Shown: positions 54,929-61,405 of the stretch, in pieces | Position numbering within the stretch: position 1 is the first letter of the stretch | How the letters are laid out: every line of letters begins with the position of its first letter | Source: Escherichia coli | Lineage (GTDB): Bacteria > Pseudomonadota > Gammaproteobacteria > Enterobacterales > Enterobacteriaceae | Length of the DNA stretch: 64,000 bases | Assembly: GCF_045037415.1 (NCBI RefSeq) | Contig: NZ_CP173440.1 | Direction: 5' to 3' (one strand) | Notes under the pieces: generated by a model | Databases searched by the model: none | What the model was told of the DNA's origin: nothing | The model's input: only the letters and a program-made list of their open reading frames with translations | Program-made: the position numbers and the translations under genes

Positions 54929-55360
54929 TTGGAAAGGAGTCATGATTTGAAATTCAATAACAATCAAAATGAAAAATGTCTCAATAAGGTGTTGAGTTAT
55001 TTTTCAGAAAAAGATACTAACCTTATTGTCGTTATAATAGGGCCTTCCCGGTCAGGGAAAACCCTTCTGGCGAAGCGTGCATTATTTGATGGTTTATTTA
55101 TTTCACCAGATGAGCCGATAGCTGGTGAGAATTTTATTCAGAGTTTATCAAATAAAGATATCATCGTTGATGATGTTGTCCTTTTTGATATGCGGAATGT
55201 GTTGAAATACGTTCTTCATTCACTTGCCTCGGGAAGGAAAGTGATTTTGACCGGGCGTCCGGAAGATGAGTCTTTGTATCAGAAGCTTCTGTTAAATTTG
55301 CCTAAGGAAATTTCACCATTATTTATTAAGCTGGCGGGTGAAAATTCCTTGTATCTGTGA
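54929..55360 (+). CDS. small P-loop NTPase, intact paralog of the split gene
   Basis: Walker A GPSRSGKT; hydrophobic stretch then IIVDD (Walker B-like); TTG start inferred. Confidence 0.5.
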   Translation: MERSHDLKFNNNQNEKCLNKVLSYFSEKDTNLIVVIIGPSRSGKTLLAKRALFDGLFISPDEPIAGENFIQSLSNKDIIVDDVVLFDMRNVLKYVLHSLASGRKVILTGRPEDESLYQKLLLNLPKEISPLFIKLAGENSLYL

Positions 55361-55422
55361 GCAGGGACACTTAACTAATTTGCCATCAAAATGGCATAGC
55401 TTATTTTAGGGGAGGGGGAGCT

Positions 55423-56214
55423 TTGAATCATCCTGTAGAGTCAGTATATAGCGCTCTGACGAGTATTTTATTGCCCTATATGGGTGAGCCTGTGCCTGTG
55501 CAACGAAATTGCTCATGCTGCGGCAGAGCTCCCTCAGAGTTCGACGGGGTAGGCTTCGAGCTGGTCAACGCCTACAGGGAACGTGTTGTGCATTGCCGCC
55601 CTTGCCAGACATTTTTTGTTTCTGCTCCAGAGCTGATGGGCGTGGAGAACCCCAAAAAACCAACAACCGGCCAGAAATTTGGCATGTGGTCTGGTGTTGG
55701 GGCTGTTATTAACGTTGAAGACAATTCTTCGGTTCTTTTAGCCCCTCAGGGAGTGGTCAATAAACTACCTGAGCATTTTTTCGATCACGTAGAAGTCATC
55801 ACGGCCACCAGCGGTCAGCATCTGGAATACCTGTTTAACACCGAACTGAAATTCCCGCTGATTTATATTCAAAACTTCGGCGTGAAAACCTACGAGCTTG
55901 TTCGCTCACTGCGGGTCAGTCTGAGTGCCGACGCAATTTATACCTGTGCCGATCAACTACTCACCCGGCAGAACGAAGTCCTTTACATGCTGGATTTAAA
56001 AAAGGCTAAAGAACTCCATCAGGAAATAAAAAACTACTCCAAGAAAGAGATGGATATCTTTATCAGAACAGTAACCCTGCTGGCCTATTCGCGGATAACT
56101 CCTGAAGCCGCCTCGAATGAGTTTAAGAAAAACAACCTCATTCCGTTACTGCTGCTTCTGCCGACTGATCCCCATCAACGCCTGAGCATTTTGCACCTCT
56201 TGAAAAAGGTATGA
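55423..56214 (+). CDS. csf1: type IV CRISPR large-subunit-like protein Csf1
   Basis: N-terminal zinc finger CSCCG ... CRPCQ; strong ribosome-binding site GGGGAGGGGGAG; first gene of the cas operon. Confidence 0.6.
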   Translation: MNHPVESVYSALTSILLPYMGEPVPVQRNCSCCGRAPSEFDGVGFELVNAYRERVVHCRPCQTFFVSAPELMGVENPKKPTTGQKFGMWSGVGAVINVEDNSSVLLAPQGVVNKLPEHFFDHVEVITATSGQHLEYLFNTELKFPLIYIQNFGVKTYELVRSLRVSLSADAIYTCADQLLTRQNEVLYMLDLKKAKELHQEIKNYSKKEMDIFIRTVTLLAYSRITPEAASNEFKKNNLIPLLLLLPTDPHQRLSILHLLKKV

Positions 56215-56783
56215 CCATGATTTTCTACGATAATGCGTTTCGGTTGCGTATCTCTCACACAAGTGTTTACCGGATCCACCAGCACCTGGATTTTTTCATG
56301 CAGGAACGTAAGGGAGAGAAGCTGCCGTACTCTTTTAAAATTTTTCCCGGTACCGGGAATGATTCGAGACTGCTGGTCCGCACAGCCACAGCTCTGGAGC
56401 TGCCAGGGGAGAAAAAAAGAGAGCTTACTCTCTCTGAGGGCCATGAAATTAAGTTCATTACGTCAATGGCCATCTTTCATAAAGGAACAAAGTTAGAAGG
56501 CCATGGCCGACGCCAGTTTGCTCCATCTGATGAAGCGAGTTATCAGATGGCCCTCACCAAATTAGCGAAGGCTGGTCTTGACTCCCGTCAAATCGTCGTG
56601 AGTGGCCCGGAATTCGTCCATATCGACAAGGGCAATGCTCGCCGTGGTTTTATGCTTCCTGTCTTCACTGTTCAGGGGGCCGCCACTATCAGCAATCAAC
56701 AGGAAGCTGAAATGGCCATCGTTTATGGCGTCGGCCCTAAACGCGTTTTTGGTTGTGGTTTCATGCATCTGGCAGGGGAGTAG
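56211..56783 (+). CDS. cas6: Cas6-family crRNA endoribonuclease
   Basis: 190 aa with C-terminal glycine-rich loop YGVGPKRVFGCGFMHLAG; ATGA start/stop overlap with csf1. Confidence 0.6.
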   Translation: MTMIFYDNAFRLRISHTSVYRIHQHLDFFMQERKGEKLPYSFKIFPGTGNDSRLLVRTATALELPGEKKRELTLSEGHEIKFITSMAIFHKGTKLEGHGRRQFAPSDEASYQMALTKLAKAGLDSRQIVVSGPEFVHIDKGNARRGFMLPVFTVQGAATISNQQEAEMAIVYGVGPKRVFGCGFMHLAGE

Positions 56784-56785
56784 TC

Positions 56786-59361: not shown

Positions 59362-59365
59362 TTTC

Positions 59366-60397
59366 ATGAGAACTTTAAACTTCAACGGTAAAATTTCGAC
59401 TCTGGAACCACTGACTGTAACAGTAAAAAATGCGGTCTCAACTTCCGGCCATCGCTTGCCTCGTAACGGTGGATTCAATGCAGCCCCGTACTTTCCAGGT
59501 ACCAGCATTCGGGGAACTCTTCGTCATGCTGCGCATAAGGTCATTGTCGATCGTGTGGGCCTTAATGCAGACGGAAAATCACCTTTCGACCTGGCAGAAC
59601 ATTTCATGCTGGCCCAGGGGGTGGATATCAATGGTGAAGCCGAAACCTTCGCGCCAGGTGAAATCAATGCTGGTGCTGAACTACGTAGCAAAAACCCGTT
59701 AATCAGCTTGTTTGGTCGTTGGGGATTAAGCGGCAAAGTTGGTATAGGGAATGCTATCCCGGATGGTGATAACCAGTGGGGGATGTTTGGTGGGGGTGCC
59801 CGCTCAATTATGTTTCAGCGTGACGAAAGTCTGATGGAGTTTCTTGAGACAGACCAGGTTGATCGTCTGGAACGCCTGCTCGAGGAACAGGCTGAGGCAA
59901 GTGTGGATATCTCTCAGATCAAAACAGAGCAGGATGCACTCAAAAAGGCGATGAAGTCGGCTGATAAAGACACCAAAGCTGAGCTTCAAATCAAAGTACG
60001 GGAGCTCGATGAAAAAATTCAGGCCCGCAAAGATCAGAAGCAGGAATCTCGCGAGTCAATTCGCCGCCCGATTGACCCGTATGAAGCGTTTATCACCGGC
60101 GCAGAACTCAGCCATCGCATGAGTATTAAAAATGCGACTGATGAGGAAGCAGGGCTTTTCATTTCTGCATTAATCCGCTTTGCAGCCGAACCACGTTTTG
60201 GCGGTCATGCGAATCATAACTGCGGTCTGGTGGAGGCTCACTGGACAGTTACGACCTGGAAGCCGGGTGAACTGGTACCAGTTACACTTGGAGAAATCGT
60301 CATCACACCGAATGGTGTTGAGATTACCGGGGACGAGTTGTTTGCTATGGTAAAGGCATTCAATGAAAATCAATCTTTTGATTTCACTGCCCGCTAA
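59366..60397 (+). CDS. csf2: Cas7-like backbone protein Csf2
   Basis: 343 aa; GTSIRGTLRHAAH resembles the Cas7 glycine-rich RNA-binding loop. Confidence 0.65.
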   Translation: MRTLNFNGKISTLEPLTVTVKNAVSTSGHRLPRNGGFNAAPYFPGTSIRGTLRHAAHKVIVDRVGLNADGKSPFDLAEHFMLAQGVDINGEAETFAPGEINAGAELRSKNPLISLFGRWGLSGKVGIGNAIPDGDNQWGMFGGGARSIMFQRDESLMEFLETDQVDRLERLLEEQAEASVDISQIKTEQDALKKAMKSADKDTKAELQIKVRELDEKIQARKDQKQESRESIRRPIDPYEAFITGAELSHRMSIKNATDEEAGLFISALIRFAAEPRFGGHANHNCGLVEAHWTVTTWKPGELVPVTLGEIVITPNGVEITGDELFAMVKAFNENQSFDFTAR

Positions 60398-60462
60398 CTC
60401 CAAAAGCTGGTGGATTTTAGTGGCGCTATTTAATATTTTATAATCAACCGGTTATTTTTAGA

Positions 60463-61405
60463 GTATTCCCCCCGTGTGCGGGGGTTATCGGCAACCTCAA
60501 TTCCTAATGGCTGTCTAAGGAAAGTATTCCCCCCGTGTGCGGGGGTTATCGGCAGGGTTTGCCCTTTTGCACCGCGCAGCGGTCGTATTCCCCCCGAGTG
60601 CGGGGGTTATCGGAGCAACGTTTCCGGATTATATGGCTGGAACGTGTATTCCCCCCGTGTGCGGGGGTTATCGGTGGTGCTCTCAACCGTCACCCGCTGG
60701 CTGGAAGTATTCCCCCCGTGTGCGGGGGTTATCGGTGGTGTTGTCCACGGTCACCCGCTGGCTGGAAGTATTCCCCCCGCATGCGGGGGTTATCGGGCAC
60801 CCTCACGGATACCTTTTGCACAGTGTTAGTATTCCCCCCGCATGCGGGGGTTATCGCCTTAGAGAAGCAAAAACCCCACCGAGGCAGGGGTATTCCCCCC
60901 GTGTGCGGGGGTTATCGGTTACTTTTTGGCAGTTGGTAAAACACTTTTGCGTATTCCCCCCGCATGCGGGGGTTATCGGCGAAAACGGCAACCTTCATAA
61001 AAACGTCTTTTGTATTCCCCCCGTGTGCGGGGGTTATCGGCCGAGATTGAGTAAAGCAAAGTAACGGCGGTGGTATTCCCCCCGCATGCGGGGGTTATCG
61101 GCAGCGTCTGAACGGACGAAACATCCCTGTTGAGTATTCCCCCGTCTGCGGGGGTTATCGGCGAGCGCTCTCCTGGTAAATCGGTAGCTCGGAGTATTCC
61201 CCCCGCATGCGGGGGTTATCGGGCTGGATTTCCGTCAGTTGGTCAGCTGCTGCTGTATTCCCCCCGTGAGCGGGGGTTATCGGTTCCGGACTCCTGTTTC
61301 CGGCAGTGGATTAAAGTATTCCCCCCGCATGCGGGGGTTAACGGCACTACCAGATCCGAATGGACACCCGTAATGAGTATTCCCCCCGCACGCGGGGGTA
61401 TCGAC
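60463..61405 (+). CRISPR. CRISPR array: 16 repeats of 29 bp, 15 spacers of 32 bp
   Basis: repeat GTATTCCCCCCGTGTGCGGGGGTTATCGG at 61-bp periodicity; AT-rich leader at 60400-60462; degenerate terminal repeat at 61377. Confidence 0.95.

What the first reader, a model, noticed from the sequence alone, without database searches (positions are those of the whole stretch)
54929..61405. DinG-associated type IV-A CRISPR-Cas system lacking adaptation and Cas3 genes
The operon csf1 (zinc finger), cas6, dinG (Walker A and DEAD box), csf3, csf2 has overlapping or abutting reading frames and is followed by a 16-repeat array. No cas1, cas2 or cas3 is present in the window. This matches the plasmid-borne type IV-A architecture, which established work links to plasmid-versus-plasmid interference through a DinG helicase rather than target degradation. 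Rep lies upstream and umuD downstream.
Basis: partly seen in the sequence, partly recalled or inferred. Interest (0 to 1): 0.8.

Follow-up and report, generated by a model that had tools for sequence, protein, structure and literature searches.

The report
Known plasmid type IV-A3 CRISPR-Cas locus

Summary
On the + strand lie csf1/cas8 (55423-56214), cas6 (56211-56783), dinG (56786-58660), csf3/cas5 (58654-59361) and csf2/cas7 (59366-60397). A 65-bp leader follows, then 16 repeats of 29 nt with 15 spacers of 32 nt (60463-61405). Profile HMMs place all five proteins in type IV-A3 families (E 1e-86 to 1e-262). Cas7 is 100% identical to chain 8rc2_A of the K. pneumoniae IV-A3 cryo-EM structure, and Csf1, Csf3 and DinG match the same entries end to end. 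The DNA is 95-99.7% identical to over 800 Klebsiella plasmids. The whole window is collinear with an annotated 341-kb IncFIB/IncHI1B plasmid that has no cas1, cas2 or cas3 in that stretch. Spacers match traL, traE/traK and a DUF6685 gene of IncFII-type Klebsiella plasmids, a small gene on ColE1-like plasmids, and Klebsiella temperate phages. Their PAMs are AAG (5 of 8), AAA, ATG and AGG, all within the published functional set.

Two corrections: the stated start, 54929, belongs to an unrelated small P-loop ORF, not csf1. IS4321 separates Rep from the locus, and a group II intron separates the array from umuD.

Verdict: already known (Newire 2020; Benz 2023; structure paper 2024), so interest is low.

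The parts
55423..56214 (+). csf1 (cas8-like large subunit), 263 aa, TTG start after a GGAGG ribosome-binding site. Zinc-finger cysteines C30/C33 and C58/C61.
   Evidence: PADLOC Csf1gr8 5.5e-151 and Csf1_2_IVA3 1.8e-122. PDB 8rc2_G 3.9e-178 over 263/263 residues. Cysteine positions.
56211..56783 (+). cas6 (csf5), a Cas6e-like crRNA endoribonuclease, 188-190 aa (PGAP start 56217).
   Evidence: PADLOC Cas6_0_IVA3 7.8e-86, with secondary Cas6e 7e-10. No PDB chain matches, which agrees with Cas6 not being modelled in the IV-A3 cryo-EM map (PMC11519345).
56786..58660 (+). dinG (csf4, CasDinG), an SF2 helicase of 624 aa. Walker A GVGKT at residue 43, DEAD box at 215-218. The mechanical ORF extends upstream to a TTG at 56753.
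   Evidence: PADLOC Csf4_0_IVA 1.1e-262. PDB 8s35_M 1404.7 bits over 624/624 residues. D215/E216 are the residues mutated in the catalytic mutant of Benz et al..
58654..59361 (+). csf3 (cas5), 235 aa.
   Evidence: PADLOC Csf3gr5 7.2e-125. PDB 8rc2_F 7.2e-151 over 235/235 residues.
59366..60397 (+). csf2 (cas7), the backbone subunit, 343 aa.
   Evidence: PADLOC Csf2_1_IVA3 6e-151. 100% identical over 343 aa to PDB 8rc2_A.
60398..60462 (+). 65-bp AT-rich CRISPR leader, with a perfect TATAAT at 60439-60444 and a weak -35 (TTTAGT) 17 nt upstream.
   Evidence: Sequence. The length matches the conserved 65-bp leader reported by Newire et al. (PMC7434947). The leader is used as the crRNA promoter in PMC12714566. 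Promoter activity here is inferred.
60463..61405 (+). CRISPR array of 16 repeats (consensus GTATTCCCCCCGYRTGCGGGGGTTATCGG; 6-bp stem and tetraloop; variation mostly in the loop, plus R07, R15 and R16 differ in the 3' tail (GTTATCGC, GTTAACGG, GGTATCGAC); R12 lacks one C; R16 degenerate) and 15 spacers of 32 nt.
   Evidence: for the array and for the folds (-12.1 kcal/mol for the three 29-nt variants tested, -11.8 kcal/mol for the 28-nt R12). Spacer targets and PAMs.

Best explanation
This is a complete, apparently functional type IV-A3 CRISPR-Cas locus of the Klebsiella IncHI1B/IncFIB megaplasmid lineage.

Proposed mechanism:
1. The array is transcribed from the 65-bp leader, and Cas6 cuts the repeat hairpins to give crRNAs.
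2. Csf1(Cas8)-Csf3(Cas5)-Csf2(Cas7)x6-Cas6 assemble on each crRNA. The complex finds a protospacer next to a 5'-AAG-type PAM through the Cas8 zinc-finger/Cas5 interface and forms an R-loop.
3. The DinG helicase is then recruited onto the displaced non-target strand and blocks transcription. It does not cleave DNA.
4. By silencing core genes of competing IncFII(K)-type conjugative plasmids (traL, traE/traK, a DUF6685 gene), of small ColE1-like plasmids and of temperate phages, the host plasmid hinders their entry, transfer and maintenance.
5. New spacers must be supplied in trans by a host chromosomal type I-E Cas1-Cas2, because the locus has no adaptation genes.

Shown here: gene content, family assignment, identity to the characterised proteins, array anatomy, spacer targets and PAMs, and absence of cas1/2/3 from the window. 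Taken from the literature on the same system: complex assembly, transcriptional repression, DinG dependence and in-trans adaptation.
For: - All five proteins hit IV-A3 HMMs strongly.
- Cas7 is 100% identical to the solved K. pneumoniae IV-A3 effector, and Csf1, Csf3 and DinG match the same PDB entries over their full length.
- The locus DNA is 95-99.7% identical to 849 PLSDB plasmids. Of these, 816 are Klebsiella, and the best hits are typed IncFIB/IncHI1B, conjugative, MOBH.
- Leader length, repeat hairpin and loop wobble match Newire et al..
- Spacer matches: S14 matches traL in thousands of IncFII-type plasmids. S15 matches traE/traK. S03 and S13 match a DUF6685 gene. S04 and S05 match a 73-aa ORF on ColRNAI plasmids. 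S09 matches an IncFII/IncR plasmid. S10 and S12 match Klebsiella temperate phages.
- Of 8 protospacers sampled, 5 have AAG, and the others have AAA, ATG and AGG. All fall within the AAN/ANG functional set of PMC12714566.
- DinG keeps D215/E216, the residues whose mutation affects silencing.
- No cas1/2/3 is annotated in the collinear stretch.
Against: - Nothing in the sequence contradicts the assignment.
- Expression and activity of this particular copy are not shown.
- IS4321 lies 790 bp upstream of csf1 and could have displaced a native promoter. The consensus scan found only weak promoter-like sites in the region, at chance frequency.
- Six spacers (S01, S02, S06, S07, S08, S11) have no convincing target in the plasmid or phage collections.
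- Whether the host carries a type I-E adaptation module cannot be seen from a plasmid window.
Confidence: 0.96

Rival explanations
1. The locus is an inactive relic. The genes are intact but the operon is silenced or decoupled from its promoter by the IS4321 insertion or inversion upstream, so the array is a fossil record and not a working weapon.
For: IS4321 (53297-54634) sits just upstream. The segment between two inverted IS4321 copies is inverted relative to NZ_ON081623.1. The three arrays compared share the same leader-proximal spacer S01 and differ only by internal losses, so they show no recent acquisition. The promoter scan is at chance level.
Against: All five ORFs are full length and identical or nearly identical to proteins that assemble and function. 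The same IS4321-adjacent arrangement occurs in several of the closest matching plasmids. Newire et al. detected cas7, dinG and cas6 transcripts in three clinical isolates with this system, and Benz et al. found constitutive expression in the native host. The leader keeps a perfect -10 box.
Confidence: 0.04
2. It is a reduced type I-E (or I-F) Cascade that lost cas3 and cas1/2, not a type IV system.
For: The repeats are I-E-like (29 nt, 32-nt spacers, AAG PAM). PGAP names the Cas6 'type I-E Cas6/Cse3/CasE'. PADLOC gives a secondary Cas6e hit at 7e-10.
Against: Csf1, Csf2, Csf3 and DinG hit only type IV models at E-values of 1e-122 or better, and no Cas8e, Cas11, Cas7e or Cas5e model is hit. Cas6 itself scores 8e-86 on the IV-A3 model. 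The proteins are those of the solved IV-A3 complex.
Confidence: 0.01
3. The system mainly regulates genes of its own plasmid or of the host chromosome, as reported for Pseudomonas oleovorans IV-A1, and does not chiefly attack competitors.
For: Type IV-A acts by transcriptional repression, so regulation is mechanistically possible. Six spacers have no identified target, and Klebsiella chromosomes were not searched.
Against: No spacer matches the 64-kb window outside the array, even allowing 8 mismatches. Nine of 15 spacers match foreign plasmids or phages, eight of them within 0-1 mismatch (S13 has 3) and the eight sampled sites carrying functional PAMs.
Confidence: 0.04

Closest known systems
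Type IV-A3 CRISPR-Cas of K. pneumoniae IncHI1B/IncFIB plasmids (p1530 model system of Benz et al., 10.1101/2023.06.23.546257; cryo-EM entries 8rc2, 8s35-8s37, PMC11519345; first described by Newire et al., PMC7434947, and Pinilla-Redondo et al., PMC7038947)
   Same: Gene order csf1-cas6-dinG-csf3-csf2-leader-array. Cas7 is 100% identical, and Csf1, Csf3 and DinG match over their full length. The leader is 65 bp. The 29-nt repeat has loop wobble. PAMs are AAG-type. Spacers target traL and other IncFII(K) genes. There is no adaptation module. The replicon context is IncFIB/IncHI1B.
   Different: Only the spacer complement and the flanking mobile elements differ. This copy has 15 spacers and lacks one internal spacer found in two close relatives. 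It is flanked by IS4321 upstream and a group II intron downstream. None of these differences affects the type.
Type IV-A1 CRISPR-Cas (Pseudomonas oleovorans / P. aeruginosa)
   Same: The same five protein roles, DinG-dependent nuclease-free interference, a plasmid-borne location, and no cas1/2.
   Different: Different gene order, a Cas6f-like rather than Cas6e-like nuclease, a different PAM (GNAWN-type, per PMC12714566) and different DinG docking (PMC11519345). The IV-A1 HMMs score far lower here: Csf4_IVA1 at about 1e-16 to 1e-17 against 1e-262.
Type I-E CRISPR-Cas (Cascade with Cas3) of Enterobacteriaceae
   Same: Repeat length and hairpin, 32/33-nt spacers, AAG PAM, and a Cas6e-like nuclease. 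Its Cas1-Cas2 can load spacers into IV-A3 arrays (Benz et al.).
   Different: This locus has no Cas3, Cas8e, Cas11, Cas1 or Cas2. The effector proteins belong to Csf families, and the outcome is silencing, not degradation.

Membership tests
Type IV-A3 CRISPR-Cas | Csf2 (Cas7) of the type IV clade, IV-A3 branch | tested here: met
   PADLOC Csf2_1_IVA3 6e-151. 100% identity to PDB 8rc2_A.
Type IV-A3 CRISPR-Cas | Csf1 (Cas8-like) large subunit with an N-terminal zinc finger | tested here: met
   Csf1_2_IVA3 1.8e-122. PDB 8rc2_G over the full length. Cysteines at 30/33 and 58/61.
Type IV-A3 CRISPR-Cas | Csf3 (Cas5) | tested here: met
   Csf3gr5 7.2e-125. PDB 8rc2_F over the full length.
Type IV-A3 CRISPR-Cas | DinG/Csf4 helicase with intact Walker A and DEAD motifs in the operon (defines subtype IV-A) | tested here: met
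   Csf4_0_IVA 1.1e-262. PDB 8s35_M 624/624 residues. GVGKT at 43 and DEAD at 215.
Type IV-A3 CRISPR-Cas | Cas6e-like Cas6 (distinguishes A3 from A1/A2) | tested here: met
   Cas6_0_IVA3 7.8e-86 with secondary Cas6e hits.
Type IV-A3 CRISPR-Cas | No cas1, cas2, cas3 or other effector nuclease in the locus | tested here: met
   None among the ORFs of 52-64 kb. The window is collinear with NZ_CP117741.1, whose annotation of that stretch has none. The rest of the replicon is outside the window.
Type IV-A3 CRISPR-Cas | Adjacent CRISPR array with I-E-like 29-nt hairpin repeats, 32-nt spacers and the conserved 65-bp leader | tested here: met
   compared with Newire et al..
Type IV-A3 CRISPR-Cas | Carried on a large conjugative plasmid (IncHI1B/IncFIB), not a chromosome | tested here: met
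   849 matching PLSDB plasmids. The collinear records are typed IncFIB/IncHI1B, MOBH, conjugative. repB is at about 52234-53313.
[quoted passage not shown]
   9 of 15 spacers have plasmid or phage matches. Eight sites were sampled: AAG x5, AAA, ATG, AGG.
Type IV-A3 CRISPR-Cas | crRNA-guided, DinG-dependent transcriptional repression without DNA cleavage, and spacer uptake via host Cas1/2e | not testable with these tools
   Shown experimentally for the same proteins by Benz et al. and in PMC11519345 and PMC12714566. Not measured for this copy.
Type I-E CRISPR-Cas | Cas3 helicase-nuclease plus Cas8e, Cas11, Cas7e, Cas5e and Cas1-Cas2 | tested here: not met
   No such HMM hits for any of the six ORFs, and none annotated in the collinear plasmid stretch.

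The most novel reading that the evidence does not exclude
Spacers S04 and S05 are adjacent and cover exactly the same protospacer. It lies in a 73-aa ORF upstream of an integrase gene on ColE1-like plasmids. The two spacers differ at four positions, all synonymous in the target gene. A third variant (TCGTGTTGTCCACGG...) occurs in the array of another strain (PMC12714566).

The most novel reading not excluded is that IV-A3 targeting of a slightly mismatched allele biases the host type I-E Cas1-Cas2 to re-acquire the same site. This would be a priming-like feedback between a nuclease-free type IV effector and a type I adaptation module. The alternative is independent sampling of a favoured AAG site.
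Probability: 0.08. Interest if true: 0.55.

Novelty: already known. Interest (0 to 1): 0.1.

Why it matters
Type IV-A3 systems matter because they sit on multidrug-resistance megaplasmids of Klebsiella and influence which other resistance plasmids can coexist with them. They are also being developed as nuclease-free silencing and editing tools. This copy adds nothing new. Its proteins are the ones already solved by cryo-EM, and its array is shared (at least 80% of spacers S01-S07) with 36 or more plasmids in PLSDB. Its value is as a correctly annotated instance. PGAP labels four of the five genes 'hypothetical' or 'helicase C-terminal domain-containing' and calls Cas6 'type I-E', so automatic annotation still misses the system.

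Tried and rejected
1. **P-loop ORF as accessory gene.** It has only close homologues, all from Klebsiella-type plasmids, and only marginal P-loop Pfam hits. The PDB search gave nothing useful. It is absent upstream of a diverged IV-A3 locus with 64% Csf1 identity, where an unrelated membrane ORF sits instead. I rejected it as a core component.
2. **traL PAM as an escape mutation.** I asked whether the ATG PAM at the very common traL protospacer is an escape mutation. All three perfect matches sampled have ATG, and diverged alleles have other triplets. ANG PAMs are functional according to PMC12714566, so there is no support for escape.
3. **Self-targeting.** No spacer matches elsewhere in the window, even allowing up to 8 mismatches.
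4. **Rfam.** The array region gave only chance-level miRNA and sRNA hits.
5. **NCBIfam.** It gave only sub-threshold hits (DinG/Csf4, Csf2) and nothing for Csf1, Cas6 or Csf3. This explains the poor automatic annotation.
6. **Spacer S06.** Its apparent match (H174) turned out to be another IV-A3 array, not a target.
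Full report
**Observation**

ORF listing and translation show five co-directional, abutting or overlapping genes on the + strand:
- 55423-56214 (263 aa)
- 56211-56783 (190 aa)
- 56753/56786-58660 (635/624 aa)
- 58654-59361 (235 aa)
- 59366-60397 (343 aa)

A 65-bp AT-rich leader follows. After it comes a CRISPR array at 60463-61405 with 16 repeats and 15 spacers of 32 nt. Fifteen repeats are 29 nt and one is 28 nt. The consensus is GTATTCCCCCCG(TGT/CAT)GCGGGGGTTATCGG. Each of the four repeat variants I folded forms a 6-bp G:C-rich stem with a tetraloop, and most of the variation falls in that loop. 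The last repeat is degenerate. That fixes the leader at the cas7 side and transcription on the + strand.

DinG has GVGKT at residue 43 and DEAD at 215-218 in the 624-aa numbering. Csf1 has a CxxC...CxxC zinc finger (C30/C33, C58/C61).

**Identity of the system**

PADLOC profiles assign every protein to type IV, and specifically to IV-A3:

| Protein | Model | E-value |
|---|---|---|
| Csf1 | Csf1gr8 / Csf1_2_IVA3 | 5.5e-151 / 1.8e-122 |
| Cas6 | Cas6_0_IVA3 | 7.8e-86 |
| DinG | Csf4_0_IVA | 1.1e-262 |
| Csf3 | Csf3gr5 | 7.2e-125 |
| Csf2 | Csf2_1_IVA3 | 6e-151 |

NCBIfam gives only sub-threshold DinG/Csf4 and Csf2 hits and nothing for the other three. This explains why PGAP annotates the genes as hypothetical, as 'helicase C-terminal domain-containing protein', or as 'type I-E Cas6/Cse3/CasE'.

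Against solved structures, Cas7 is 100% identical over 343 residues to 8rc2_A. Csf1, Csf3 and DinG match 8rc2_G, 8rc2_F and 8s35_M end to end. These entries are the K. pneumoniae IV-A3 complexes of PMC11519345, in which Cas6 was not modelled. That accounts for the empty Cas6 search.

**Replicon context**

The 6.7-kb locus is 95-99.7% identical to 849 PLSDB plasmids, of which 816 are Klebsiella. The best hits are conjugative IncFIB/IncHI1B MOBH plasmids of 310-380 kb.

The whole 64-kb window is collinear with NZ_CP117741.1. The exceptions are an IS1-like insertion (4050-4819) and an ISL3-like insertion (49835-51152) in the window, and an ISKpn26 insertion in the record. The annotation of that stretch contains no cas1, cas2 or cas3.

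repB lies upstream on the - strand, but it is separated from the locus by IS4321 (53297-54634). A second, inverted IS4321 copy sits at 26436-27773. The segment next to it is inverted relative to NZ_ON081623.1.

Downstream of the array lies a group II intron, identified by Rfam RF02005 at 61771-61996 (186.6 bits) and by ltrA at 62101-63588. After it comes umuD, from about 63675, cut by the window end.

**Spacer targets**

I searched concatenated spacers against PLSDB and the phage collection and inspected the flanks of representative hits.

| Spacer | Target | Mismatches | PAM |
|---|---|---|---|
| S14 | 3' end of traL in IncFII-type plasmids | 0 | ATG (3 of 3 sampled) |
| S15 | traE/traK overlap | 1 | AAG |
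| S03 | DUF6685 gene on IncFIB/IncFII plasmids | 0 | AAG |
| S13 | Same gene family as S03 | 3 | not examined |
| S04 | 73-aa ORF upstream of an integrase gene on ColRNAI plasmids | 1 | AGG |
| S05 | Same site as S04 | 1 | AAG |
| S09 | Intergenic site on an IncFII/IncR plasmid | 1 | AAG |
| S10 | Klebsiella temperate phages | 0 | AAG |
| S12 | Klebsiella temperate phages | 0 | AAA |

- S14 dominates the search with all 15 spacers, which returned 3,364 matching records.
- The four differences between S04 and S05 are all synonymous in the target ORF.
- S01, S02, S06, S07, S08 and S11 have no convincing target. The S06 'hit' was another array.
- No spacer matches the window itself.
- Five of eight PAMs are AAG, against 1 in 64 expected by chance. 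The other three fall in the AAN/ANG set found functional in PMC12714566.

Among three related arrays, differences are internal losses of units, and the leader-proximal spacer is shared.

**Mechanism**

The mechanism comes from work on proteins identical or nearly identical to these.
- Benz et al. (10.1101/2023.06.23.546257) showed crRNA maturation and a Cas8-Cas5-Cas7n-Cas6 complex that binds DNA without DinG.
- They showed transcriptional repression that needs DinG inside transcribed regions, using the D215A/E216A mutant.
- They showed interference with conjugative plasmids and phage, a 5'-(N)AAG motif, and spacer acquisition through host type I-E Cas1/2e.
- PMC11519345 showed bipartite Cas8/Cas5 PAM recognition, R-loop formation and DinG loading on the non-target strand.

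Applying this to the copy in the window is an inference from sequence identity. Expression of this copy was not tested. The one caveat is the IS4321 insertion 790 bp upstream of csf1.

**Side question: the P-loop ORF**

It has only close homologues, marginal Pfam hits and no structural relative. It is replaced by an unrelated membrane ORF upstream of a diverged IV-A3 locus. I treat it as a neighbour specific to this plasmid lineage, not as part of the system.

**Verdict**

The system is already known in detail: classification in PMC7038947, description on IncHI1B/IncFIB plasmids in PMC7434947, function in Benz et al., structure in PMC11519345 and engineering in PMC12714566. Interest for discovery purposes is therefore low.

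Noticed in passing
window 54929/54947-55360 (+): A small P-loop NTPase-like ORF of 137-143 aa (Walker A GPSRSGKT, Walker B IIVDD) lies directly upstream of csf1. Some records label it 'NB-ARC domain protein'. Full-length homologues of 85-98% identity exist only on Klebsiella-type plasmids. It is absent from a diverged IV-A3 locus. Its function is unknown.
   Followed up: yes
window 60675-60706 (S04) and 60736-60767 (S05): Two adjacent spacers cover the same protospacer and differ at 4 positions, all synonymous in the target. The target is a 73-aa ORF upstream of an integrase on ColRNAI plasmids. A third variant of this spacer is used in PMC12714566. This suggests repeated acquisition of one site from different alleles.
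   Followed up: partly
window 61284-61315 (S14); targets e.g. L003 1501-1532: This spacer has by far the most targets, matching traL in thousands of IncFII-type Klebsiella plasmids. In all three perfect matches sampled it sits next to ATG, not the canonical AAG. No AAG allele was seen among the 5 alleles sampled.
   Followed up: partly
window 26436-27773 (-) and 53297-54634 (+): There are two identical, inverted copies of IS4321 (IS110 family). The segment next to the first copy (27774-43415) is inverted relative to plasmid NZ_ON081623.1. This is consistent with IS-mediated inversion of the region that carries repB.
   Followed up: partly
window 61771 to about 63660 (+); ltrA 62101-63588: A group II intron (Rfam RF02005, 186.6 bits, plus an RT/maturase ORF) is inserted between the end of the CRISPR array and umuD, apparently only about 15 bp upstream of the umuD start. 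It has the same orientation as both. I did not map its 3' boundary or its effect on umuDC expression.
   Followed up: no
window 54635-54928 (+): Between IS4321 and the P-loop ORF there is a 64-aa open frame (54668-54862, ...ILAVHASGHKVLVIGQPSDHELCIGLLSRLPVGYRAMF...). It looks like the C-terminal remnant of a gene truncated by the IS insertion or rearrangement.
   Followed up: no
window 4050-4819 and 49835-51152: There are two extra insertions relative to NZ_CP117741.1. The first is an IS1-sized 768-bp element with a 9-bp target duplication. The second is a 1.3-kb ISL3-like element (406-aa transposase at 49864-51084, - strand) with an 8-bp duplication.
   Followed up: partly
window about 7372-10079: Other defence or maintenance genes occur in the window, judged by collinearity with NZ_CP117741.1. 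They include a type II restriction-modification pair (cytosine methyltransferase plus endonuclease), a PIN-domain protein, a RelE/ParE toxin, and a site-specific DNA methyltransferase next to a 1,126-aa hypothetical protein.
   Followed up: no
arrays of L001 (NZ_ON081623.1) and L002 (NZ_CP117741.1) compared with window 60463-61405: The three near-identical plasmids differ only by internal loss of repeat-spacer units. The window lacks spacer AGGTATTTGACCTCATCCAGAAAGGCACAGAC, L001 lacks S06, and L002 lacks S02-S04. All three share leader-proximal S01, so none shows a recent acquisition.
   Followed up: yes
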